From Moniliella sp. 'wahieum' (taxonomy: Eukaryota): a stretch of 64,000 nucleotides of DNA. The DNA is taken from the NCBI GenBank assembly GCA_003971905.1, contig RSEE01000081.1:186001-250000 (forward strand), in the 5' to 3' direction. Below are positions 17,573-61,172 of this stretch, piece after piece. A program made the position numbers and the translations under genes. Every line of letters begins with the position of its first letter. The stretch's first letter is position 1. Under the pieces are notes generated by a model. It had not been told where the DNA came from. It saw only the letters and a list, made by a program, of their open reading frames with translations, and made no database searches.

Positions 17573-18557
17573 TCAAGCAAAAACCCGACGAACCGAGAGC
17601 TCGTCCTCGACCGGGGCGAGAGCTGCGCGCTTCTCCTTGAGTTGTTGTTTGCTCTCGACCGTCTCGGCGTACTTGTTTGACTTTTTCCGGCGCATAGCGG
17701 ACCGAATGGCGTTGGGCGACACGTACTCTGGGTTATCAAACAGGACCGCACCGGAGAAAGAGCCTTCAAAGATTTTGATGGGCGTCAGAACAAACCGGGG
17801 CCCAATCTCGGTCAATGTCGAACAGCAATCCCGTCTGATTTCTTGGTCTTCTTACTGGCGTTCCCGCTCAGCTGGGCAGCAAGCGCCGCTTGCATCTCCG
17901 ACTCGTTCTCGTGAGCCAAAGGCTCAACAATTTGAAAGTTGCGGAACCAAATCTTGCCGTCCAACAGGGAAAAGGATAGGACGTGGTCCACAAACGGTTT
18001 GGTCCGCCGCGACGTTTGCGGTACACCAAGATCTGGATGAGCATTTCCTTGATGAGTTGCAGGTGAGGTTCAGCGTCAAAGCCAGCGTCAAAAGTGACAA
18101 TGTGCCGACTTCCCTTCAAGCAGTTGCCGGTCATCTTAAGTTCGTCCATGGTGTGGATGTTGTTTACCTGCAACTTGACGGTAGGGCCGTTGGGTGCCTT
18201 GCTCATCCACATAAACAGGTCAAGGTGCTTGCGTGCCTCAAAGAAGAGAGTGTCTGTGCAAATGTTAGAACTCGATCGGGCGGCAAAAGAGAGGAGGCAT
18301 GCATACGTTGCAATTGTTGAGCTCTGCAAGCTCGTTGAGCACGTGAAGCTGATGCTTCGTATCCAACTTAGCGTCCCGCTTAGAGTGCGGCATGAGCGCC
18401 TCGAGGTCCGAGATGAGGTGCCGCATCTGGCTCGTCACGCCCCGCGAGGGGACCATCAGTACACGCTGCCTGTTCTTGCGGAGGGGAGCAACGCTCTCGC
18501 CCTCCCCGTCGTCATGCTTGCGCTTGCCCTTGACACGGCGGCAAACTTGGTCGCCAT
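17573..18557 (-). CDS. BRX1: Ribosome biogenesis protein Brx1 (Brix domain)
   Basis: SRGV..RHL..DL..LMPHSK, FFEARKH.DL, GPTVK, HTMDELKMTGNCLKGSR, EIGPRFVLTPIKIFEGSFSG; intron about 18254-18306. Confidence 0.95.
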
Positions 18558-19791
18558 TGGAGTTAGTAGGTGGATGGGTGGATGGGTGGTCTAAAGCAGC
18601 ACGCCGTGATTCGAGAGAAAAAAGAAAAAAGTTGGCGCGTCGATTGAAATTGCATTTCTCGTCTTTGCAGCCCTGCAGTTCCGCCGGTCGGTGGCAACAG
18701 CCTCGGAAGAGGGAGGTGGTGTACGTAAGCCAGCAGGACAGCCGCTACGCGTCCACCCGACAGCCATGGACAATTAAAGTACGCACCGGAGCCTATAGCT
18801 GCATCGCATGGCTGGAGGCGTGAAGTGGGTCTCTTTCTCCTGACCACGCAATCGGAAGATGGCCAGCTGGGTCTGTACAGCGCGCCCCCCGCACCTCCGG
18901 CGCCTACCTGAGGAGATCCGAAAATTGATACCGTCAGGCTTCTGGGGCAAACCATCACAAAAAGCCACGAAACGGTGTTGAACGCCCCGGTACGTTCGGG
19001 TGGGGGAGAAGGGAGTGCTGAGGAAAAAAATCTGATGAAACCCCCGGGCAAAGCAAGCGCATGCTTCCTTACCCGAAGAAGGGAAGAAGGGGCTTGGGGG
19101 TCAAAAAGAGAAAGAAAGAGGAGAGGTCGTCGAAGTTACGCAAAGGAAGCGAGCAAGGCTCGAAAGAATAGGCGAAACGCGTGGAAGAGGAAGAAACGAT
19201 CCTGATCAATGGTAAAGCGACGGAGCCGGCATCTGAATGCAAGGCTGACGTAGACGCTGAGGAAGAACGATGGTCTCAACACATATCAAAAAGCGATTCG
19301 ACTTTGTGTTCAATGCCGTGGGCATAAACGCGTAACACTTGCGTGTCAAGCACAAAGAGGGGTATCTTTTCGCCAATGGTCCTGCAGGGCCTTGGTAGTT
19401 TCCGCAAATTGGTTGGCCCGGATCATCGAACATCACTGTCCTTGCCTGAAAAGTAACATTCACCCATCCAACACGATACCGATGCACGCTCGCGTTTACC
19501 CCGAGACGCGAGGCCGTAGAAGCGGTAGAGAGCCTATAGTTTTTGGAAAGATTGCTACGCCTATCAATGTGGATGGCTCGTGGGCGCGTTCAGGGATCAA
19601 GCCTCAAGTACAGTCGATGAGACGGCTGTTGCGTGTTGCGCACGGTGGTCTCTCCTAGTGAGTTCCATGCTAGCTGCTAATCAACCCCAACGAAAGGACG
19701 AACCCAACTCCTGACTCTGGTGGGGTACCTGTGGCCAACGGTATGGGACTGCAGCGCGATAGAAGCACAGATCTCAGCGGGAACAAGTGAA

Positions 19792-25482: not shown

Positions 25483-26196
25483 TCAGAAGGCAAACGAAGG
25501 ATCCTCCTCCTCGGCAAAAAACGCATGGTAAGTGACCATGGTGGAATACACCAGGGCGCCACCTACGATGGCCATGGCGCATGCGGAGGTTGAGAGGAGG
25601 GCAGCATGAGCCAAGGCCAAAGGGAGGGCGATGCCACTGACGAGCATGATGGCTGTGAGAAAGTTGCCGAGGTCACAAAGGCCGTGTTGTAGTCTGCTGA
25701 GTAATCGTCGTGCCCAGCCAAGCGGGAACAGAGCGAGTTGGGGATCGGGGCGAGGACGAAAAGTAGTGCTGTACCCATGCAGAGAAGGGAGTGGGATTGG
25801 GGGGGTTAGTGTGTCGTACGGAGCTACTGAGCCCAGCGGAGAGAAAAGGTGGTCTGCGCATAGTTTCCTGATCCAAGTGCGAAAGCAGATGTACATATAG
25901 GACGCGGACAGTGAATGCAGGGAGGGGGAGGAGGGAGAGACGTACCAACCAAAAGGGGGTACCAGTTGGACCAAAGTGCACACGAAAGAATCAAGAGCAA
26001 AAACCCAAACGCCAAAACAAACGCGAGCCAGATAACCGCTGTCGACGACAACCCCGTTGGTTAGTACTTGGTACTTAGTACTTAGTCCAGATGCAAGATC
26101 CATCCTGGGACCCGGCTCGGGAGTCCTAGCCATTGGACAATAACCAATAGCCATTAGACATTGGACATTGGACATACTGCGAATCCCGGACGCCAT
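25483..26196 (-). CDS. VPS55: Vacuolar protein sorting protein Vps55
   Basis: Spliced MASGIRT|VIWLAFVLAFGFLLLILSCALWSNWYPLLV|ALLFVLAPIPN...LGNFLT...SGIALPLALAH; introns 26039-26177 and 25769-25945; four hydrophobic segments. Confidence 0.92.
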   Translation of the reverse strand: MASGIRSMSNVQCLMAIGYCPMARTPEPGPRMDLASGLSTKYQVLTNGVVVDSGYLARVCFGVWVFALDSFVCTLVQLVPPFGWYVSPSSPSLHSLSASYMYICFRTWIRKLCADHLFSPLGSVAPYDTLTPPIPLPSLHGYSTTFRPRPDPQLALFPLGWARRLLSRLQHGLCDLGNFLTAIMLVSGIALPLALAHAALLSTSACAMAIVGGALVYSTMVTYHAFFAEEEDPSFAF

Positions 26197-30982: not shown

Positions 30983-33900
30983 ATGAAGACCGTGACGGAT
31001 TCCGATCCTCTTGATCTCGAAGCTTTGCTCGAGAGTACGGAATTTCAGGCCGCAGAGCCTTTCTCGGGTCTTAATCCAACGATGGAAGCATTGATGGATC
31101 CGTTCAGATTGGACGGTGACGGTTCTCGTCTCTCCTTTCAAGCAATGTCGACATGGACAATTTCGGTTTGGAAGGCTTCCCTGCCGGCCCCAACCTATCT
31201 CTGACCTCGCATTTTCTCATCGGGCCAGATGCCATTCTCTGACCCCGCCAATTTGCAGTTTGACCATCCATTATTATCGGATATGGATATGCCAACTTCG
31301 GGGAAGATAATGGAAGCAACAAAAATGCGGAGGTGGGATTGCCCTTGCGCGAAATATTCCCTTCTTTGGCCGGACATGCCTCTGATTCAGACGGCATGAC
31401 TTCATTTTCTCCTCCATCCCGGCCGTGGTGCAGCAACACACCCTTCCCTGGATCCAGCCCGAACCGAACTGAGCACATTTTCCCTTCCGTTTGTAGTGGA
31501 AACTCAGGGCGTACCAAGGGAAAATGTCACAAACCTCGTTCCATCCAAACCGGTGAACTCAAGCCACGTTACAAAACGTATCATCAACGTATCCGTCAGT
31601 ACCACCGTATCCGTTCCCAGTATTGGCTCGGGCGCAAGGCTTGCCTACTGCCCGGCCAATCACAACAACAGGGAACGATCGGCTGCGGGCCGCGGATGGC
31701 TGGTCCGCAAGCAGGGGTGTCTCTACAAGATCGTCGGCGCCAACGCCACCTGAAGCAACAGCAACCTATTTTTCTAGCCCAGCCCTGGTGGGAGCGTCAA
31801 ACCCATTTGAGCTCTTCTTTCCCTTCGCTGATTCCGGAAAAAGGCAAGAAGCGCACTTTATCTGTGACAGAGCCAGCACCTGATTTGTCCGCGCCTCCTA
31901 CCAAATTTGCACGGAAGGCTACTAGTGCTTGGCAGCTTATCCCCTCCGTCCAAACACTCCCCTACATCCCAGCCTGCCTTCACTTCATGTCTTGACGGAT
32001 ACGTAGGGGAGATGAAACGGGCATGGGCATGCCTACTGCCACTATCACTTCGAACACGGTGTTGCCAAATGTGGTTAGTCCGCAGGTGTGATGCCAGCAA
32101 CCGAGCACATTCACGGTGCCACTTCATCTTTATCAGGGTTTGACGTCCTCACCGCCCTGGCGAAGGTAGCCGCCCGCCCAAATCCGGAATCAACATGGGC
32201 CCAGTGGACGAGTCATGTTCATTACTGTGGATGTGGACCTTGCGGACCAGCCTGTGGTTGTACTGCTCTGACGCATTCCTGCAATTGACGGGATACGCGA
32301 AGCACGAAGTCATTGGTCGAAACTGTCGCTTCTTCAAGCACCGGCTGGAATTGTACCAAAGGGATATCACCTACGGCTACGGACCCCAGGCGATTCGACA
32401 CTTGGCCATCCTCTTATCCCAGAAGAAAGAGTGTCAGGCGAGCTTGATCAATTACCGCAAGGACGGCCGCCCTTTCATCAACTTGGTCACCATTGTTCCC
32501 ATCCGATGGGACGATCCGGATGCATCAAGTAATGGTAGGATTTCAAATCGACTGATTGAACAACTGGATCGATGTGGAGAAGAGAGCGGACGGATCGTAC
32601 ATTGTCAACTACTCGTCCCTCACCCCCTTGCCGCTTCCACAAGGTTCCGCCAGTATTGGGCATACAGAGCCGGCTTCGCTGTCCCACTCAAGGAAACATC
32701 CACCGTTGGTTCTGACGGATGAGGAACTTGACGCTGAGCGTACTCTAGAGAATGCGTTTAACGTATCGGATGCCGTGAGCGGTAACATGCAAGATCCGCA
32801 AGCTCGAGCCTGCCTGATCCTCGAGAACTCTCCTGACGTGACATATGTTTTGTCATTGAAGGGTACATTCTTTTACGTCTCCTCATCGGTCGAGTACATT
32901 CTTGGCTTTAAGCCATCGGAGCTGATTGGCTGCTCGATTGCCGACTTTATGCATCCGTCGGACGTTGTGCCCGTATTCCGGGAGCTGAAGGACTCTACCT
33001 CGAATGCCGCCATTGCCGCCTCCGCTCAATCGGCTTCACATCGTCGTGGGTGTAGGAAAGAGCTGCAGGACCTACGGTCAACCTCATGTTCCGTATGCGG
33101 TGCAAGGACAACTCGTACCTCTGGATCGAGTCGGCGGGAAAGCTTGTTATCCAGCAGGGCAAAGGACGCAAGGTAGTAGTTTCGACCGGTCGTCCCCGAC
33201 CAGAGTATCATCTTGGAGAGAAGATCGTAACTGAATCTGCCTTGACCCAGCAGGGCTTCTGGGCCCGCGTTTCGACCGACGGCTTGTTTCTCACTGTTCT
33301 CTCTCCGTAACCCATGTTCTGCATCTTTCTCCATCTGCCTTGATCGGACATGGCTTCAAGGACCTTTGTGATCCACTGGCTGTCCCAGCGCTGATTCGGG
33401 CGGTACGCATGCCCACACCTACCTCTGTTCTTCACACTCTACCTACCAGCAACGGGGCTACATCACTGGTCGTATCGAGCTTTTACCCAAGCGCTCTTCA
33501 ACGTCCTGATGGCACCCCCACTCTCCACTCGGAATGTAAGTGTGTGGGTTCACATCGCCCGTGCCACCCCCAACCAGTTGGCCAATCTGATTCCCAATGT
33601 AACCCTGGCCATTGACCCGGGCCTCATCGCCCTGTCTTCCCAAGGCCAGGACGATACATTTGCCGAACTGGATACGCTGCGCGGATCCAACTGGAGCTAC
33701 GAACTGCATCGGCTGCAGAATACTAACCGGCATTTGAAGCAAGCCATCCACCTCGCTCGCTGCAAGCGCGTCGCCTCCCTGGGACCCGACGGATCTTGCG
33801 TCGGTCTCTCGCCGTCCCTCGACCCAGGTGAACGACAGGGCAGGACAAACTGCGTCGGCCGGACCGACACAGGGTACGGTAGGGGACATGTTGGATGACC

Positions 33901-40352: not shown

Positions 40353-42011
40353 TTAGTGGGCCGCCTCAAACTCCAGGCCAGACTCGTGGGTGGGAACAGA
40401 GGATGCGCATAGAGTTGGTCGCACCCTTGCCCGCGCGCCATCCTTGGAGGGCAACAACGGTCGAGCCCGGCTTGAGAATGCCAAGCTGCATCGCCTGGGC
40501 AAAACCAAACTTGATGCGGTTGTCCACATCTTCCTGCCATTTGCCCACAGCCGGACGCGGCTGGGTGTAGAGGAAAGGGTACGTTCCACGGAACAGATGG
40601 CATGCGCGAACGGTCTGGGGGTTGCGTGTCAAGACCAAAACAGGGCACCGCGGGCGGTACTTGGCAACGAGGCGGGCAGTGTTACCTGAGCTCGACATGA
40701 GCAGAATCGCACCGGCGTTTTGTTCCAACGAAGCTGCGACAGCAGCCATGGCCACGGTCTCCTCGGTGTGGGTCGGGGTCTGGATCACTTGCCGCATCTC
40801 ATTGAAGATGGCAGGATACGCCAATGCCGATTCGGCCAACCGTGCCGTCTGGGCCATGGCAGTAACTGCCTCAACAGGGTACAGTCCCTTGGCCGTCTCC
40901 CCCGACAGCATCACACAATCAGCACCGTCGAGCACAGCGTTGAACACGTCCGACACTTCGGCCCGGGTGGGACGGTTGTTCTTTATCATCGACTCGAGCA
41001 TTTGGGTGGCACAAATGACCGGCTTACCAGCCAAGTTGCACTGGGCGATCATCATTTTCTGTAACGAAGCAACAGCACTGGTAAGCAAACTGTACTTACT
41101 ACAACGGGTATAGGGTGGTGTTGAGACGTACCTGGCTCACCGCGACCGCTTCGGCGGGGATTTCAATGCCAAGGTCACCACGGGCGACCATGATGCCATC
41201 GGTCTCCTTGAGAATCTGCGAAAAGTTCTGTACGCCCTGATGAGACTCGATCTTGGAGATAATCTTGAGGTTGGTTCCATCCGGACCCAGAACCTTGCGG
41301 ATGTGCTTGACGTCGTTCGGGGTACGAATAAAGGAAGCAAAAATGTAGTCCAAGTCCTTTGCGACTGCAAAGCGAATGTCCGCTTCGTCCTTGGCCGACA
41401 GGGCAGGCAGATCATCTCGGTCATGGGCAGGTTGACACCTTTTTTGTTGCTCAGCACACCCGCGTTCACAGCACGCACTTTGACCTTGGTCGGCGACTCG
41501 ATGGCGAGCACTTCGAGGGCAAGAATGCCATCGTCAATGTAAATTTTCTTGCCCACGTCGATCATCTTGGGCAAGTTCTTGTAGTCAATGTAGAGGTACT
41601 CGGGGCTGGACTTTTCCGCAAAGGCGTCGTCCGTCGTGACGTAAAACTCGTGGCCTGCCTCGATGGGCGCATCCTCTCCGTTGACCATCATGCCAGTGCG
41701 CATCTCGGGGCCCTTGGTATCGAGCGCAATCGCCAGCGGGCGGCCAGGATACTGAGCCTCGACGTGGCGGGCATTGTCGATGACCGATTGGAAGTACTCG
41801 TGGGTGCCATGCGACGCATTGAGGCGCACCACGTTCATGCCTGCGTCGCGGAGGCCCTGAGGGTGGGCACATTGTTGCTCTTGGGGCCGATGGTGCAGAC
41901 GATGGCCGTCTTGCGGTCGTTGGGGTTGGACGCAGCCTCTTCGAGGCTGAGCGGATCGAGGCCGGCGAGCCACTCGATCTGGGTCATGTTGGCGTTGGGA
42001 GCAAGAGCCAT
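40353..42011 (-). CDS. PYK1: Pyruvate kinase
   Basis: [73 protein letters not shown]; intron 41059-41131. Confidence 0.98.
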
Positions 42012-46260: not shown

Positions 46261-48466
46261 TTAGATGCGCCGCAGTAGCCCCAACCCGTAGAGCCACCCA
46301 TTGGTCGCCCCATACAGTCCTACCACCGCTTCTTTGCCTGCAACGAGAGGGTGCGCTGCCCGCCCCCGGCTCCGCCATACCAGTCGCTCTTGCGCCCACT
46401 TTAGCTCGAGCTGGACCGCATCGAGCCACGCCCCGCTCCGCACGTGGATGGCAGCGAGGTGTTCGCCGGGACCAACGTCGAAGCGGTAGGCGGTGCCCCC
46501 TCCACCTGAGAGTTCACCCCAACGTGTGCCATCTGAGTAGTGGACCTCGATGCCATCCACAAACGCGCCCGCGCGAACGACAAAAGCAGTCAGTTGAACA
46601 GGCGAGTAACTGTCTTTAAATACATGCAACCGCTCAGGGCCGGCGAGTTGACCTGCGAGGAAGCCCTTGGCCAATCCAAAGGGCACCCCGGGCAGACGGA
46701 TGGGCACAACAAAGGCCTGCGTACGATAGTCCTCCACTACCGTCTGCCGCAGGTTGCATCCCACAATGTTGAGACGCACCGTGCGCGACGAAGGTGCAAG
46801 CACATCGTACCCGACCAGCGAGGACATCCACTTGGGATCGAGCAACAGAGAAGAGGGAGGAGCATGTCCGCCCTGCAACCCGGTAAACTCCACATGGGTA
46901 ATCAGGTCACCGTCTCCCCCCTGGCCTTGGGGCTTGGTATAGACCTCAACAGCACCGATTCCACACGCAGCACGGACTTCCAGGCCATTGACCCCGGGCT
47001 CATAGATGGGCTCAGCAGAGCACCACACGCGATACGCCTCGGGCCCACCGTGAGGGTTGTAGAAGGGAAGAGGTGGGTCGGTAGGCAGGGCCTGGGATGG
47101 ATGCCAGCGTCCCCGCACCGCCTGTAGACGGTGAAGGTAGTTCATGCCACTATCGTTGGCTGGAGTGATGGGGTTCACGTTCTCCTCGCCTGGGGCATGT
47201 CGTTGAGTGCGAGCGCCTTCGCGCGTCATAAAGGCCCGGTTCCACTCAACGTACCCGCGGAGCATGATGCCTCCCGGCCAATGGGGGTTATTGAACGCAT
47301 GGCCCACCTCGTGCACAAACGCTCCCGAACCAATATTGAGCGTCTCGAATGCGTACCCGCACTCGCCTAGGTCGTTGACGCAGAACCGCTCGTCCGTCCG
47401 CTCGTGGCTTTGCATTGTCTCCGTCACCTCATCCAGACCACTCGGCGGCCCAGATCCAGTGGCTGCCCATCACGCCAAACGAAAGCCCCCCGGATCGGCG
47501 GAGCCGACCGCGGCATGTCCGCGTAGGAGAGGGATAGAAGGGTCCCAGTGCGTGTCGAGCACAAGGACAGCAATGGGGCCTTGGCGGGCCTGCTTGATGG
47601 CCTGGGGACACTGGGGCGAAGAGAGGGCTTCGTTGGCGAAGCTGTGCATTGCGCCACCATTCTTGGCTTTGGGGTTTTGCTGGGCATTGTCGGGGTCGAG
47701 AAACTCGCGCACCGTGTGGTCCGAGACGAGGATGTGCACAGTAGGGTATTCGCTCACCTCCCGCCGCCGGTTGGCACAAGTAGGTTCGTCGTCCCCTGCG
47801 CTGTCATCAAGAGCAAAGGTCCGCCGACCCAGACTTGGCGGTGCATCTGTTCCCCATGGAACGCTTGCCACAGGTACGCCTGCAGAGCAAAGCGACGCTT
47901 CACTTCGCTCAAGGAACGCAGGCGCTGAGCCTGTTCCCCAGGAGGGGCATCGACCAAGGCACGTGGAGATGCGCCTGAGCTGGTATGGTCGGCGATCTTG
48001 CGTCCCCACTGAGTCAACAGACCCGAATGGGATGAGGTGGGAGGCCCATCCGGGGCACGGAGAGCAGGACTGTCCTTGGCTACCAGGATGGCAAGGTGAA
48101 GCGGCGGAGTTCCTCGGTCCCGCTGGTACCAGATGCTGTAGGGAGCTGGACGAGGCTGGGCTCGCGCTGCTGCCACGCGCGGTCGTCATACAGCAAAATC
48201 TGGGAAGCATGTGTGTACTCGCGCTCGAACAGCTGGAGCGTCAGCTCGTTGGGGCCAGGAGAGAGCGGGACGAGGGCTTTAAACTGGCCGTGGTTGACTT
48301 GCCAGACGAGCGGGTCGTACTTGCCGTCGCGAGAGGTGACGAGAGCGTGCCTTGCGGCGCAGCATAGTTTTCCACCACGCCTTGAAGGATGAGCACGCGC
48401 TGGTAGACCGTCTCGCGGTTGGCCACGTTCTGCACCACGATCTGGGGCACGCCCTTGGCCAAGCAT
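46261..48466 (-). CDS. Putative zinc metalloprotease with a C-terminal jacalin-like lectin domain (YIL108W-like)
   Basis: GQFKALVPLSPGPN, PPLHLAILVAKDSP, RRFALQAYLWQAF.GEQM, HEVGHAFNNPH, GIMLRGY..WNRAF; tail VRAGAFVDGIEV / VRSGAWLDAVQ / VVGLYG. Confidence 0.85.
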
Positions 48467-48762
48467 GGGTGGTGTCGGCTGTCGCAGCGCAGTCGGCGGA
48501 GGAGCGGCGGCAGCTCAGCAAAGCTCAGCCGAAGCGAATGCCCGGGCCCCTGGGTTTCAAATTGCACTTACGACGCACAGACGACTCTCTGCGTGTATAA
48601 CCCTCTCTCTCGCTTAAATACAAAAGCAAACACCCAAGATGATGGCAGCAGCGCCAACACCACACCATCTCCCTGTCCTCTGCCCTACACCTCGAGACGA
48701 CCACCCGCCACACCCCCATTCTCACCTCCCCCATCGCCTCCTTCAGTGCGACAACCAACTAC

Positions 48763-51522: not shown

Positions 51523-52746
51523 ATGCCCCTCAACAACAACTCTATCCCGTCCCGGTTGCGGACGGCAACAAGTCGCTTGTCCTCGGCAAGGTTGACACCA
51601 TCTACTACGAGCAGCGCCCCGTCAAGCCCCTGGCCCCAACGAGGTCCAGGTCAACATCCGCCAGACTGGTGCGTCTTGCCCTTGCCCCCTGCCCCTCTTC
51701 GCCTCAGCACTGACCTTCGGCTCCCACCCAGGCATTTGCGGTAGCGATGTGCACTACTGGAAGCACGGCTCCATCGGCGAGTTTGTTCTCACCGCGCCCA
51801 TGGTCCTGGGCCACGAGTCGGCAGGCATTGTGACGTCGGTGGGCGCCAACGTGGACAACCTCAAGGTCGGAGACCGCGTAGCGCTGGAGCCTGGTGTTCC
51901 GTGCTTCAAGTGCGAAAACTGCTTGGGCGGACAGTACAACCAGTGCCCCAAGATGATCTTTGCTGCTACGCCGCCGTACGATGGCACGCTGGCGACGTAC
52001 TACAACCTCCACTCATCTTTTGCCCACAAGGTGCCGGACCACATGTCGCTCGAGGAGGCGTCCCTGATGGAGCCTCTGTCTGTGGCTGTGTACGCAACAG
52101 TCAACCGAGGCAAGGTGGCCCCACTGCAAAACGTGCTGGTTATTGGGGCTGGCCCGATCGGCTTGGGGTGTGCCGGTGTGGCCCGCGGTTGGGGTGCGGC
52201 GGCCGTGACGGTGGTGGACCTGATTGACGACAAACTTACCTTTGCCAAGGAGTTTGCCGCCACGCACACCTACAAGTCTTCCCGCCCGCTCGAGGGCGAG
52301 ACACCTGCGCAGGCAGCCTTGCGCAACGCCAAGGCTGCAGTGAAGGTGTCGGGCGAGGAGGTGGTTGCGAATGGCGGGTTTGATTTGGTATTGGAGTGCA
52401 CGGGTGCTCCGCCCTGTGTGGCGATGGGGATCAATGCCACCCGGCCTAAGGGCCGGTATGTCCAGGTAGGCATGGGCGTGGACAATGTGACGGTGCCGCT
52501 GGCCTATGTCAATGTGCGGGAGGTGGAGATTACGGGTTCGTTCCGATACGGGGCGGGGACGTACCGTACGGCCATTGACTTGGTCGCTTCGGGGAAGCTG
52601 CCGATCTCTAAGATTGTCACCCACCGCTTTACCTTTGATGAGGCCATCAAGGCGTTCGAGACGACGGCCGCGGGTAAAGGTCCAGATGGCCGCACGTCGG
52701 TCAAGGTGCAGATCAGCCAAGGCCCTGCTGACCCAAGTTTGCTTAG
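51523..52746 (+). CDS. Xylitol/sorbitol dehydrogenase (zinc-dependent MDR)
   Basis: GICGSDVHYW, LGHESAG, structural-zinc C..C..C...C, EPLSVAV, GAGPIG, GSFRY; intron about 51669-51732. Likely stop at 52744-52746 (…DPKFA*) if one C is missing; the raw ORF runs to 53020. Confidence 0.93.
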
Positions 52747-53209
52747 CCAACACTTCTCTTTCCTTTCTGTCTGGTGGCTTTATGTTCCCTTAAATTGTCA
52801 CCCCCTTCATGTACTTGCTAGTGCAAGCCCCTCATACCATGTTCCCCCGCTGGCGAGGCTCGAGGGTCAGATGAAGCCCTACTTATTTTTTTTGCGAGCG
52901 AAACCCGTACCAGCCGAAACTGATCAGGGACGTCTTAGTCGTGTGCACGTCAGTATTCAAGGCGGAATAGTTCCCATGCTCGAATTTCGCGTGAGGTCTG
53001 AGAGCGATCAGTCGTTTTGACAGCCAAGGGGGCATGGTCAAAGTGGATCGCTCAGGGACGATTTTGAATCTACTCACTGGTCAGTGCTCATCTTGGTCCT
53101 GCAGTGGCGTCGACAGCAGTGGGAGCTGCTAAGTCCTAGCCTTTAGGTGCGCGGGGCATATGGCAAGAATGAATTGATTTTGCGAGAATGAGAGGGTTGC
53201 TGTGGCTCC

Positions 53210-55067
53210 TTAAGCTCGTTGTAGTATGCAAATGCTCTGGGCATGGCTGTAATAGACTGGTTAGTCGAATTCATCGAGTGTGGAAGAGGAGAGACGTACC
53301 GGGTCTGCGGGAACAAGTCAGCAGCACGCAGGGAGAAGAAGGTGTAGGCTGGGTCGTGGCTGAGGAGGTAGCCAACGTCCCGAGCTTGGGCATGAATGCT
53401 GGCCGACACATAGATGACCAGTCTGGGGCGTAGCTTGAGCAGTCCTTCGAGGAAATCGTCATCGCAGCCACGCCGTGGGGGGGTAATCACTACCGTCGTC
53501 GAGTCGGGCTTAAAACTGTCGATGCGGGGCGAATGGAAATCTCCTGAGCCGGGCCCACGTGGAAACTCACTTCGCCCAAGTCGTTAGCCATTGCGCTATG
53601 CACTGCGCATTTGACGGCTCTAGGCGAAAATTCTACCCCACCACTTGCTTGAACATGGAGGCTAACGACAATGCAAACAGTCCCGGGCCACAGTAAGCGT
53701 CAATCAGGTACTGTGGCTGGACTCGCTGGTCCGCAGGAAGAGTGGACGCCAACGCACAATCTCGTGGCGTAGGTACTCGACAAAGGGGAGCAACATGGAA
53801 CGATTGGCCGGGAAAGAGTCATAGGCTGGGCCATGGACCCAGATGCTTCCGACTTTCTCGTACGTGATATCATTCTTCAAGTCGGTCAGCACTTGGGACC
53901 CATCGGTTCTTCTTGCGAAAGCGATTTCGAATCTTGGGGGTCAACGAATCGCGAAGCATTAACGGCTTTCCGGTGAGACGGAGATGGACGGTTTGCCGAG
54001 CCTCTTCGCGTACGATTGGCAAACGGTTGTTGATCGCGTCAGTGGCAACAGGACAAGCATCGATATCCAATAGTTGGCCGTCATCCCATTGAATCCAATG
54101 GGGCAGGGGTCAGGATCGGGTGGGGGGATCACAGGTTTGGATAGGTCCAAAGGCGTGTGGGTCAACTTGGCATGAAGTTTTTCCTCTTTCTGCCACTGCC
54201 GCACCACGGCAGGAACGACGAAGTGAACCTCCAGTTTGGTGCGATAGCCATATTGCTTTGGAGAAGGTAGCGTTTCGGCTGCGGGCGGGACAAGCGCAGG
54301 GTTCAACCCACTATAATTAGCGAATGCCGTGTCGACAGCATGGCGTTTCAGTTCGAGCTGTTGTGGATAGGACAACATCTGGTACTGACATCCACCGCAG
54401 GAGTGAAAGACCTCACAAGGAGGTGTCTGTGTCCGCATCTTGGATGGTACCAAGATTTGCTCGATGATAGCCACAGAGTGCATCTCCAAATTAAAGGTGA
54501 CCCGCACCATCAGCTCGTCCCGGGCAACGATTTAGGAACAAGGATGGCCCAATCATCATGCCCCGGATCGCGCGCCACGCCCATTCCGATGGTGGTGATT
54601 CTTTCGACTTTTACCCGAAGGATACTTCCGATGGGGTACACAAACTCAGTAGTTGTGCCCTTGGCCTTGCGTCGTTCCACCGCCTCTGGCCCCAAGAACT
54701 GATGCACCTCCAATATGCTTGGGTCCACAGCAAAGGCCTTGGCCCTCTTAACCGAGGCCTGTAATGCGGGTCGTCTACTAGGTTCCGGAGGAGTCAAAGG
54801 GGGCAAAGGGATGTCTTTGCGAGGAGTACCTGTGGGAACACCCACAAGTTGCATGGCGTCCAGACGATGCCCAGAGAAGGGCGAGTGGGTTTGGCGGCCC
54901 GGTTGGCGCCGGAGCACACGGGAGGCTAATTTGCTCTTATCGGGGAGCGGATGCGCTGAAGAAAGGGATGAGGAGGAGGAGGAGGAGGAGGAAGATGATG
55001 AGCATAATGCGCGGGCTTGACCCACCATGTGGGCCGGAAGAGCAGCCAATGCGCGACCGCTCGTCAT
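53210..55067 (-). CDS. TRM2: Trm2/TrmA-family RNA (uracil-5)-methyltransferase homologue with catalytic residues substituted
   Basis: TRAM-like segment, CEVFHSCGGCQYQ, PSPKQYGYRTKL, DIDACPVA, LIDAYCGPGLF, PPRRGC, IYVS..HAQARD, DLFPQT; intron 53247-53299; stop at 53210-53212. Confidence 0.88.
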
Positions 55068-60840: not shown

Positions 60841-61172
60841 CAATCGCATTAGTTACATGTTACCCATGATTCTGAACATGATGAGTGCTGCTGAAAGGGG
60901 GAATTACATGCAACAGGGTCAATCAATGCAAAGCGCGACAATTATCAGGACGGGTAGAGCCGTAGTCGATAGAGATGATGGCGGGTACGCAAAAATGTGC
61001 CTCTTGGCCGAATCGAACGACCGATCTTCTCATGTCCCAGTATTTCTACTAGTGAGATGCTTTACCACTGAGCCAAAGAGGCTTGATGCTTGGTACCATT
61101 CATCGAATAAAAAATACATAACACCTTACATAAACTTCAAACCCCCTCAGTGAGGCTGCATTTGCGCTGCGG

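What the first reader, a model, noticed from the sequence alone, without database searches (positions are those of the whole stretch)
53210..55067. Trm2-like m5U methyltransferase with all four catalytic residues replaced: probable pseudoenzyme
Seen: motif X FFQNN reads SFPAN (53801-53820, Q to P); motif IV DPPR reads TPPR (about 53473-53484); motif VI YVSCN reads YVSAS (Ala codon 53401-53403); motif VIII H.ES reads HAQS (Gln codon 53237-53239). The scaffold is kept: Cys cluster CEVFHSCGGC plus DACP, SAM motif DAYCGPG, QARD and DLFPQT. Established: in the TrmA/RlmD/Trm2 family these Gln, Asp, Cys (nucleophile) and Glu (general base) form the active site, and Cys-to-Ala or Glu-to-Gln changes block turnover. 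These are in-frame substitutions, unlike the indel errors elsewhere; only the D-to-T change lies beside a homopolymer. Inference: a catalytically dead paralogue kept as an RNA-binding or chaperone factor. The Arg/Ser/Ala-rich N-terminus suggests mitochondrial import.
Basis: partly seen in the sequence, partly recalled or inferred. Interest (0 to 1): 0.78.

Follow-up and report, generated by a model that had tools for sequence, protein, structure and literature searches.

The report
Catalytically dead fungal Trm2 tRNA methyltransferase
A fungal copy of the enzyme that methylates uridine 54 of tRNA has lost its whole catalytic centre while the rest of the protein still looks conserved, so it is probably kept as a non-enzymatic tRNA-binding factor, as already proposed for cattle TRMT2B.

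Summary
On the minus strand, 55067..53210, lies a TRM2/TrmA/RlmD-family gene. Its motif X reads SFPAN, motif IV TPPR, motif VI YVSAS and motif VIII HAQS, at the stated codons.

- **Loss is lineage-specific.** The two closest relatives, P0200 (54% identity) and P0183 (46%), keep FFQNN, DPPR and YVSCN. Cys is present in 225 of 226 aligned homologues.
- **Frameshifts look like assembly errors.** The reading frame is broken 6-7 times by one-base homopolymer indels. Pyruvate kinase in the same window has 3 such breaks, and the Brix, Vps55 and peptidase genes are also split. There is no premature stop by substitution.
- **The rest of the protein looks constrained.** With P0183 as outgroup, window-only against P0200-only changes are 11 vs 3 inside the four active-site blocks. 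Outside them they are 50 vs 37 (p=0.16) and equally conservative. All four catalytic residues fall among the 9 changed of 66 near-invariant columns (p=1.7e-4).

Best reading (about 0.58): a pseudoenzyme kept for tRNA binding or folding. 'Paralogue' is not supported: in the tree it sits where the lineage's TRM2 orthologue would. A recent pseudogene remains possible. Precedent: TRMT2B of Bovinae and rat.

The parts
53210..55067 (-). Whole TRM2-like gene: ATG at 55067, two exons, TAA at 53212-53210. Conceptual product about 602 aa once 6-7 one-base indels are read through.
53300..55067 (-). Exon 1, read in changing frames because of the indels.
53247..53299 (-). 53-nt intron with GTACGT donor, CTAAC branch site and CAG acceptor. 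P0200 and P0183 gene models run off into unrelated sequence at the same point, which suggests a shared intron position.
53210..53246 (-). Exon 2: (R)HAQSICILQRA plus stop. Holds motif VIII, with Gln (CAG 53237-53239) in place of the general-base Glu.
53803..53817 (-). Motif X reads SFPAN where homologues read FFQNN. The TrmA F188 equivalent is Ser, the Q190 equivalent is Pro, and the first Asn is Ala.
   Evidence: residue roles from PMC1904294
53473..53484 (-). Motif IV reads TPPR where homologues read DPPR. The Asp is replaced by Thr and the Arg is kept. It adjoins a C7 homopolymer.
53398..53412 (-). Motif VI reads YVSAS(IHA) where homologues read YVSCN(VHT). The nucleophile Cys is replaced by Ala, with three further changes beside it.
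53681..53701 (-). SAM-binding motif I, DAYCGPG(LF), retained.
54388..54417 (-). CEVFHSCGGC: three of the four Fe-S cluster cysteines (C-x5-C-x2-C), retained.
   Evidence: RumA cluster cysteines from a PMC5614603 passage
54050..54061 (-). DACP: the fourth cluster cysteine, retained.
54522..54623 (-). N-terminal TRAM/OB-like RNA-binding segment (ILRVKVE...VPKSLP).
   Evidence: Pfam TRAM E=0.095, below cut-off; alignment
54520..54521 (-). Frameshift 1: one base missing in a G run (cccGGGac).
54086..54087 (-). Frameshift 2: one base missing at aatGGGat.
53908..53935 (-). Frameshift 3. Either one extra base (C5 run, guide P0183) or two separate one-base losses at 53935 and 53909 (guide P0200).
53744..53745 (-). 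Frameshift 4: one base missing at cgtCCac.
53640..53641 (-). Frameshift 5: one base missing in a G run (gtGGGGta).
53539..53540 (-). Frameshift 6: one base missing in a T run (gagaTTTcc).

Best explanation
This is the TRM2 (tRNA m5U54 methyltransferase) gene of a Ustilaginomycotina-like basidiomycete, and its product can no longer methylate.

What is lost: the nucleophile Cys, the general-base Glu, the Asp that holds uracil and SAM, and the Phe and Gln that recognise uracil. All are replaced.

What is kept: the TRAM/OB RNA-binding domain, the four Fe-S cysteines, the SAM-binding motif I and the Rossmann-fold framework.

Inferred mechanism: the protein still docks on the tRNA elbow and T arm. 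SAM may act as an affinity-raising ligand, as in E. coli TrmA C324A. The protein would then act as a tRNA folding or stabilising factor, with no covalent chemistry.

Shown here: the substitutions, their restriction to this lineage, and the contrast between drift in the active site and constraint elsewhere.

Inferred only: that the protein is expressed, that the frameshifts are assembly errors, and that it binds tRNA.
For: 1. Substitutions confirmed at the stated codons. T and A pair with the DPPR Asp and the SCN Cys of solved RlmCD and PabTrmU54.
2. The nearest relatives P0200 and P0183 keep FFQNN, DPPR and YVSCN. 225 of 226 homologues keep Cys.
3. In 66 columns that are at least 95% conserved, the window differs at 9, including all 4 catalytic residues (hypergeometric p=1.7e-4). 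P0200 differs at 3, two of them intron read-through artefacts.
4. Tajima relative-rate test with P0183 as outgroup. All 491 columns: window-only 61 vs P0200-only 40 (p=0.037). Inside the four motif blocks: 11 vs 3 of 43 columns. Outside them: 50 vs 37 of 448 (p=0.16).
5. Window-only changes outside the blocks are as conservative as P0200's: mean BLOSUM62 +0.26 vs +0.11.
6. The conservation gradient is intact: 88% changed in the least conserved columns, falling to 14% in the most conserved.
7. There is no stop codon by substitution. The intron signals are canonical. GC1/2/3 of 0.60/0.45/0.62 is coding-like, against about 0.53 in noncoding stretches.
8. The frameshifts resemble the window's assembly errors. 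Pyruvate kinase has 3 in 1.6 kb. Brix has 2, Vps55 has 1 and the peptidase gene at least 1.
9. Literature, passages read. TrmA C324A and E358Q are inactive. C324A still binds tRNA at 30 nM with SAM. Catalytically dead yeast Trm2 rescues a tRNA-Ser mutant (PMC7641329; PMC7237155).
Against: - The gene carries 6-7 frameshifts in 1.8 kb, about 3.5 times my crude background of at least 7 in about 7.9 kb of other genes (binomial p=0.03). Against pyruvate kinase alone the difference is not significant (p=0.32). Detection in the other genes, by Pfam coordinates, is less sensitive than in this one. Some of the frameshifts could be real.
- Even outside the motif blocks the window has somewhat more changes than P0200 (50 vs 37). 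It also differs at several near-invariant non-catalytic columns: T280E, P281V, N492S, Q543G. This would also fit general relaxation.
- Frames were chosen by similarity to homologues, which biases slightly towards conservation.
- There is no expression, binding or modification data, and no DNA of relatives for dN/dS.
- trm2 deletion has no growth phenotype in yeast (PMC7641329 passage), so simple gene loss is plausible.
Confidence: 0.58

Rival explanations
1. Recently dead unitary pseudogene. TRM2 is dispensable, the gene is decaying, and at least some of the 6-7 frameshifts are real.
For: - Frameshift density is about 3.5 times the crude background of other genes.
- All 108 outgroup homologues are closer to P0183 than to the window protein (0.395 vs 0.334 mean identity). 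Pyruvate kinase shows no such asymmetry (0.608 vs 0.610).
- There are extra changes at near-invariant non-catalytic columns.
- trm2 deletion has no growth phenotype in yeast (PMC7641329 passage).
Against: - No stop codon by substitution in about 600 codons.
- Every frameshift is a one-base homopolymer event of the kind that also breaks pyruvate kinase and a Brix-domain gene in the same window.
- Decay is not uniform. The motif blocks have 11 window-only changes in 43 columns; the rest has 50 in 448, not significantly above the intact sister.
- Two catalytic codons need two base changes each (TGY to GCC, GAY to ACC). The active site has therefore drifted for long while the rest has not.
Confidence: 0.22
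2. An active enzyme misread. The apparent substitutions are consensus errors of an error-prone assembly, and the true gene encodes Q, D, C and E.
For: - The assembly clearly has indel errors.
- The D-to-T codon adjoins a C7 run, where a lost G plus an extra C would give the same reading.
Against: - Pyruvate kinase shows 1 window-specific change in 184 near-invariant columns, so substitution errors are rare.
- C-to-A needs two substitutions in a non-homopolymer context.
- Eleven changes cluster in the four motif blocks.
- No alternative local frame restores FFQNN or CNVHT (read).
Confidence: 0.04
3. A repurposed SAM-binding protein with a new activity or a sensing role. It could carry out a methyl transfer that needs no cysteine nucleophile, act as a SAM-dependent RNA-binding regulator, or retain only the nuclease-type role once claimed for yeast Trm2.
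For: - SAM motif I and the motif II Glu (GVEFS) are kept while the uracil pocket is rebuilt rather than deleted.
- An endo-exonuclease activity independent of the methyltransferase domain has been claimed for yeast Trm2 (PMC7237155 passage).
Against: - No new conserved motif is seen. The replacements (S, P, A, T, A, Q) look like loss, not gain.
- No sister sequence shares them, so there is no conserved new state to point to.
Confidence: 0.1

Closest known systems
Fungal Trm2 / E. coli TrmA / RlmD (RumA): RNA (uracil-5) methyltransferases, COG2265, Pfam PF05958
   Same: - Same domain order: TRAM/OB domain, then a central domain with a 4-Cys cluster, then a Rossmann methyltransferase domain.
- Same motif I, PPR, QARD and DLFPQT.
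- tblastn E about 1e-66 to Thecaphora TRM2.
- Sits inside the basidiomycete TRM2 tree.
   Different: The residues that do the chemistry are gone. In TrmA numbering: F188->S, Q190->P, D299->T, C324->A, E358->Q. G220 and R302 are kept (roles from PMC1904294 passages).
TRMT2B of Bovinae and rat: a natural catalytically inactive m5U54 methyltransferase homologue, proposed to act as a tRNA chaperone (PMC7237155, passages read)
   Same: Natural loss of the nucleophile Cys, with the rest of the sequence conserved and 'not indicative of gene decay'. The same proposed residual function.
   Different: - There, one residue is changed (Cys to Tyr in Bovinae) in the mitochondrial paralogue, and an active TRMT2A remains.
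- Here, five functional residues are replaced in what looks like the lineage's TRM2 orthologue.
- Yeast Trm2 is credited with m5U54 in mitochondrial tRNAs too (PMC13401042 passage). No second copy is known here, and this could not be tested.
Engineered TrmA C324A / E358Q and catalytically dead yeast Trm2
   Same: The same two substitutions that laboratories use to kill the enzyme. C324A keeps nanomolar tRNA binding with SAM. Dead Trm2 stabilises a mutant tRNA-Ser (PMC7641329; PMC7237155).
   Different: Those mutants keep the uracil pocket (F, Q, D). Here it is also remodelled, so base flipping into the pocket may be weakened.

Membership tests
RNA (uracil-5) methyltransferase family (TrmA/RlmD/Trm2, PF05958) | Sequence homology along the whole length to family members | tested here: met
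   tblastn E=1e-66 (P0002) and 4e-66 (P0183). 54% identity to P0200 over 552 positions. Placed within fungal TRM2 in the tree. Pfam on the separate frame pieces is only weak: PF05958 E=0.018, and no hit for the C-terminal piece.
RNA (uracil-5) methyltransferase family (TrmA/RlmD/Trm2, PF05958) | N-terminal TRAM/OB RNA-binding domain | tested here: inconclusive
   Pfam TRAM E=0.095, 13 bits against a 21-bit cut-off. The segment aligns with the homologues' TRAM region.
RNA (uracil-5) methyltransferase family (TrmA/RlmD/Trm2, PF05958) | Four cysteines of the Fe-S cluster (C-x5-C-x2-C ... C) | tested here: met
   C218, C224, C227 and C339 all match columns at least 85% conserved. Coordinates.
RNA (uracil-5) methyltransferase family (TrmA/RlmD/Trm2, PF05958) | SAM-binding motif I (D.YCG.G.F) | tested here: met
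   DAYCGPGLF; D457, Y459, C460, G461, G463, L464 and F465 all match conserved columns.
RNA (uracil-5) methyltransferase family (TrmA/RlmD/Trm2, PF05958) | Motif X Phe and Gln that recognise the target uracil | tested here: not met
   F418S and Q420P, where 108 of 109 homologues have F and Q.
RNA (uracil-5) methyltransferase family (TrmA/RlmD/Trm2, PF05958) | Motif IV Asp (DPPR) | tested here: not met
   D530T, where 109 of 109 and 211 of 226 have D. Pairs with the D of RlmCD DPPR. Caveat: adjoins a C7 run.
RNA (uracil-5) methyltransferase family (TrmA/RlmD/Trm2, PF05958) | Motif VI nucleophile Cys | tested here: not met
   C557A, where 109 of 109 and 225 of 226 have C. Pairs with the C of RlmCD SCN.
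RNA (uracil-5) methyltransferase family (TrmA/RlmD/Trm2, PF05958) | Motif VIII general-base Glu | tested here: not met
   E594Q, where 105 of 109 have E. Depends on the predicted splice 53300/53246.
RNA (uracil-5) methyltransferase family (TrmA/RlmD/Trm2, PF05958) | m5U-forming activity | not testable with these tools
   Needs an enzyme assay or tRNA nucleoside analysis.
Naturally inactive m5U54-methyltransferase homologue kept as an RNA-binding factor (TRMT2B-of-Bovinae type) | Catalytic Cys replaced while the remainder is conserved, not decaying | tested here: met
   Outside the motif blocks, window-only vs P0200-only changes are 50 vs 37 (p=0.16), with equal BLOSUM scores. The conservation gradient is kept.
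Naturally inactive m5U54-methyltransferase homologue kept as an RNA-binding factor (TRMT2B-of-Bovinae type) | Intact open reading frame | tested here: inconclusive
   6-7 one-base indels of the same kind as those in pyruvate kinase. No substitution stops.
Naturally inactive m5U54-methyltransferase homologue kept as an RNA-binding factor (TRMT2B-of-Bovinae type) | An active paralogue elsewhere in the genome | not testable with these tools
   Only one window is available. There is no second locus in it: tblastn of 5 homologues gave no other hit below E=0.1.
Naturally inactive m5U54-methyltransferase homologue kept as an RNA-binding factor (TRMT2B-of-Bovinae type) | tRNA binding or chaperone activity | not testable with these tools
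   Needs a binding or folding assay.
Ordinary pseudogene | Disabling mutations plus uniform loss of constraint | tested here: not met
   Frameshifts are present but ambiguous. No nonsense substitutions. Decay is confined to the active-site blocks.

The most novel reading that the evidence does not exclude
This is the only TRM2 gene of the fungus. In that case its cytosolic and mitochondrial tRNAs would all lack m5U54 (ribothymidine), yet the protein is kept under selection purely as a SAM-assisted tRNA folding factor. That would be a natural separation-of-function experiment for a T-arm modification enzyme.
Probability: 0.25. Interest if true: 0.75.

Novelty: new member of a known kind. Interest (0 to 1): 0.52.

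Why it matters
It is an open question why near-universal but dispensable T-arm enzymes such as TrmA/Trm2 and TruB/Pus4 are conserved. One idea is that the protein, not the methyl group, is what matters, because it acts as a tRNA chaperone.

A natural lineage that has erased the whole catalytic centre of Trm2 but kept the rest of the protein would support that idea from evolution. It would also offer an organism in which m5U54 loss and Trm2 presence are uncoupled without engineering. The mammalian precedent (TRMT2B of Bovinae and rat) concerns only a mitochondrial paralogue.

My literature searches for a fungal case found none ('Trm2'+'pseudoenzyme' gave 0 papers; 'Trm2'+'Ustilago'+'tRNA modification' gave 0; 'Trm2/TRMT2B/catalytic cysteine/fungi' gave 9 papers, 7 listed, none on fungi as judged from the listing). 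These searches cover only the held library.

Tried and rejected
- **Pfam on single frame pieces** gave only sub-threshold hits, so it is useless for membership. I used homologue alignments instead.
- **PDB search with the motif-X piece** gave no meaningful match (E above 1). The motif X mapping therefore rests on fungal alignments only.
- **A spurious N-terminal 'intron'** (54917-54759) produced by my aligner with guide P0183 was rejected. P0200 aligns through that stretch in one frame.
- **Compensating frameshifts as the cause of the motif changes** were rejected. The other two frames of those stretches do not give FFQNN or CNVHT (read).
- **Higher homopolymer content as the cause of more frameshifts** was rejected. 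Runs of 3 or more number 53.8 per kb here, against 45.9 (PK), 44.9 (SDH) and 49.4 (whole window).
- **A lineage-wide fast clock as the cause of the long branch** was rejected by the pyruvate kinase control.
The organisms of the nearest relatives stay unknown.
- **Not done:**
  - Structure prediction.
  - A presequence predictor; none is on hand.
  - dN/dS; no DNA of the relatives.
  - Scans of metagenome contigs and viral contigs, which are closed.
  - A scan of genome contigs, which holds only bacteria and archaea and was not used.
Full report
**What is there.** The stretch 55067..53210 on the minus strand encodes a homologue of fungal TRM2, the tRNA m5U54 methyltransferase of the TrmA/RlmD family.
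- No single frame is open. Stop-to-stop ORFs of 213, 190, 79, 78, 61, 69 and 146 aa follow each other in changing frames.
- tblastn of five fungal homologues hits only this locus, in three frames, with E down to 1e-66. No other place in the window scores below E=0.1.
- I wrote a frameshift-aware protein-to-DNA aligner and ran it with the two closest relatives as guides. It gave six (guide P0183) or seven (guide P0200) one-base events.
- All the events lie in or beside short homopolymers: near 54521, 54087, 53932 (or 53935 plus 53909), 53745, 53641 and 53540.
- A 53-nt intron (53299-53247; GTACGT, CTAAC, CAG) separates the last 11 codons.
- There is no stop codon other than those caused by the frame changes.

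**The observation.** These are SFPAN 53803-53817, TPPR 53473-53484, YVSAS 53398-53412 and HAQS 53234-53245. The retained motifs are CEVFHSCGGC, DACP, DAYCGPG, QARD and DLFPQT.
- The C-terminal piece aligns to solved RlmCD (5zq1 and others) and P. abyssi TrmU54 (2jjq). The window's T pairs with the D of DPPR and its A with the C of SCN.
- Among 226 homologues aligned to that piece, 225 have Cys. 211 have Asp; 9 are unaligned there; the rest are Q x3, S, T or a gap. The pool was the 62 proteins, the 17 and the 150 listed. That makes 228 ids, of which 226 gave an alignment.
- In an alignment with 109 homologues of 440-760 aa, 103 columns are at least 85% conserved. The window differs at 24 of them, one being an X at a frameshift. 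P0183 differs at 5, three of which come from intron read-through in its gene model.
- The motif X piece alone finds nothing in the PDB. Its mapping therefore rests on the fungal alignments.

**Are the substitutions real?** Yes, as far as one window can show.
- Pyruvate kinase (42011..40399, minus strand) serves as an internal control. In 184 columns at least 95% conserved among 100 other kinases, the window differs at 5. Four of those are shared with its closest relative P0063, which leaves one window-specific change. Substitution errors are therefore rare.
- C-to-A (to GCC) and D-to-T (to ACC) each need two base changes.
- The other two frames across the motifs do not restore the consensus.
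- Only D-to-T adjoins a C7 run. There, a lost G plus an extra C would mimic it.

**Are the frameshifts real?** Probably not, but this stays open.
- Pyruvate kinase has three: two one-base losses and one near the C terminus scored as a +1 event, which I read as a two-base loss.
- Pfam coordinates show direct frame changes with no room for an intron in a Brix-domain gene (2), Vps55 (1) and a Metallopep-family peptidase gene (at least 1).
- No frameshift was seen in the domains of the sorbitol dehydrogenase, SDR, uS17, uS13, Urb2 and M24 genes.
- The crude background is at least 7 events in about 7.9 kb, against 6-7 in 1.8 kb here. The binomial test gives p=0.03, and p=0.32 against pyruvate kinase alone.
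- Detection is more sensitive here than elsewhere. Homopolymer density is similar.

**Where the gene belongs.**
- The window's pyruvate kinase is 86% identical to unnamed P0063 and at most 68% identical to named species (Ustilago, Ceraceosorus, Jaminaea, Tilletia, Malassezia). The organism is therefore a Ustilaginomycotina-like basidiomycete without a close annotated relative.
- In a quick IQ-TREE tree of 49 rows, the window protein is sister to P0200 (support 99). P0183 joins next (support 100). This trio is sister to the group holding Thecaphora frezii TRM2 (support 99).
- That is the position expected for the lineage's orthologue. There is no sign of an old paralogue.
- P0200 and P0183 both keep FFQNN, DPPR and YVSCN, so the loss is specific to the window's lineage.
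Strictly, P0200 being an intact copy in the same genome cannot be excluded.

**Pseudoenzyme or pseudogene?** Three tests bear on this.
- *Conservation bins* (108 outgroups). The share of columns where the window departs from the consensus falls from 88% in the least conserved bin to 14% in the most conserved. This runs parallel to P0200 (85% to 5%) and P0183 (89% to 5%). The excess lies in the top bin, 9 of 66: T280E, P281V, F418S, Q420P, N492S, D530T, Q543G, C557A and E594Q. All four catalytic residues are among them (hypergeometric p=1.7e-4).
- *Tajima's relative-rate test*, with P0183 as outgroup. Over 491 columns, window-only changes number 61 and P0200-only changes 40 (p=0.037). Inside the four motif blocks (43 comparable columns) the counts are 11 vs 3. 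Outside them (448 columns) they are 50 vs 37 (p=0.16).
- *Nature of the changes*. Outside the blocks, the window-only changes are as conservative as P0200's (mean BLOSUM62 +0.26 vs +0.11; Mann-Whitney p=0.72).

If the whole gene had drifted for as long as the active site has (26% of its columns changed, two codons hit twice), the other 448 columns should carry on the order of a hundred extra changes. The observed excess is 13. The simplest reading is that catalysis was lost first, the active-site residues were then free to drift, and the fold stayed under selection.

Against this stand the higher frameshift count, the slightly raised rate outside the blocks, and the loss of a few near-invariant non-catalytic residues.

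**Mechanism, from literature passages I read.**
- In E. coli TrmA, C324 forms the covalent bond to C6 of U54 and E358 abstracts the C5 proton.
- C324A and E358Q are 'not active'. Q190A is 4-fold slower in vitro (PMC7641329) and leaves 14% of m5U54 in vivo. F188A leaves 22%. D299A leaves almost none (PMC1904294).
- TrmA C324A still binds tRNA with KD 0.03 uM when SAM is present, against 1.08 uM without it. TrmA also acts as a tRNA chaperone through its RNA-binding domain.
- Catalytically dead yeast Trm2 rescues one tRNA-Ser(CGA) mutant.
- The window protein keeps the RNA-binding domain, the Fe-S cysteines and SAM motif I. I therefore infer non-covalent, possibly SAM-assisted, tRNA binding and folding or stabilisation.

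**N terminus.**
- The N terminus has no acidic residue in the first 42 residues, two Arg and a 12-Ser run. This is compatible with a mitochondrial presequence.
- Thecaphora P0002 and unnamed P0004 have presequence-like N termini too. Yeast Trm2 is credited with m5U54 in mitochondrial tRNAs (PMC13401042 passage).
- The feature would therefore be ordinary for fungal TRM2. No predictor was run.

**Comparison with what is known.**
- The kind is known. TRMT2B of Bovinae (Cys to Tyr) and of rat is predicted inactive. Bovine mitochondrial tRNAs lack m5U54. The authors argue for a chaperone-only role because the rest of the protein is conserved (PMC7237155 passages; also cited in PMC7641329).
- This case differs in three ways. 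It is fungal, five functional residues are replaced rather than one, and the gene appears to be the lineage's TRM2 orthologue rather than a specialised paralogue.
- I found no fungal case in three searches of the held library.

**Verdict.**
- The pseudoenzyme interpretation is the best-supported reading (about 0.58), with a recent pseudogene as the main rival (about 0.22).
- 'Paralogue' is unsupported.
- Novelty: a new member of a known kind.
- Interest is moderate. It would be higher if this turned out to be the only TRM2 copy.

Noticed in passing
window 40399-42011 (-): The pyruvate kinase gene carries three frameshifts, near 41855, 41415 and 40404, and one 73-nt intron (41131-41059). Otherwise it is 87% identical to unnamed P0063. 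This shows that the assembly has homopolymer indel errors.
   Followed up: yes
window 17815-18744 (-): The Brix-domain ribosome-biogenesis gene is split over three frames. Two junctions are direct; one is a TTT-to-TT loss at about 18025.
   Followed up: partly
window 47470-47472 (-), within 46264-48514: The Metallopep-family (PF12044) peptidase gene with a jacalin-like C terminus has an in-frame TGA between two ORFs of the same frame, and at least one direct frameshift near 47833. Whether the stop is a tiny intron, an error or a real mutation was not resolved.
   Followed up: partly
window 25486-26060 (-): The Vps55 gene is split over three ORFs, with one likely intron and one direct frame change near 25660-25686.
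   Followed up: no
window 54965-55003 (-): A run of 12 Ser codons (TCA/TCT/TCC) in the N-terminal region of the TRM2-like gene forms a microsatellite-like stretch. It is absent from P0200 and P0183.
   Followed up: no
window 60997-61082 (-): One tRNA gene. ARAGORN in bacterial mode calls it tRNA-Ser(aga), 86 nt. By eye it looks more like an intron-containing eukaryotic tRNA with anticodon AGT. Its T loop reads TTCGATT, so U54 is encoded.
   Followed up: partly
window 51596-53020 (+): A zinc-type sorbitol/xylitol dehydrogenase-like gene converges on the 3' end of the TRM2-like gene. Its domains lie in one frame with no frameshift.
   Followed up: no
protein P0210: An 895-aa library protein matches the 80-aa C-terminal query in 13 separate stretches at 28% identity. 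This is an odd repeated arrangement of the DPPR-to-SCN segment.
   Followed up: no
window 32144-33173 (+): Two PAS domains lie in overlapping ORFs of different frames. This may be a light-sensor-like (White Collar type) gene, again broken by a frame change. The White Collar label is my recollection, not a tool result.
   Followed up: no
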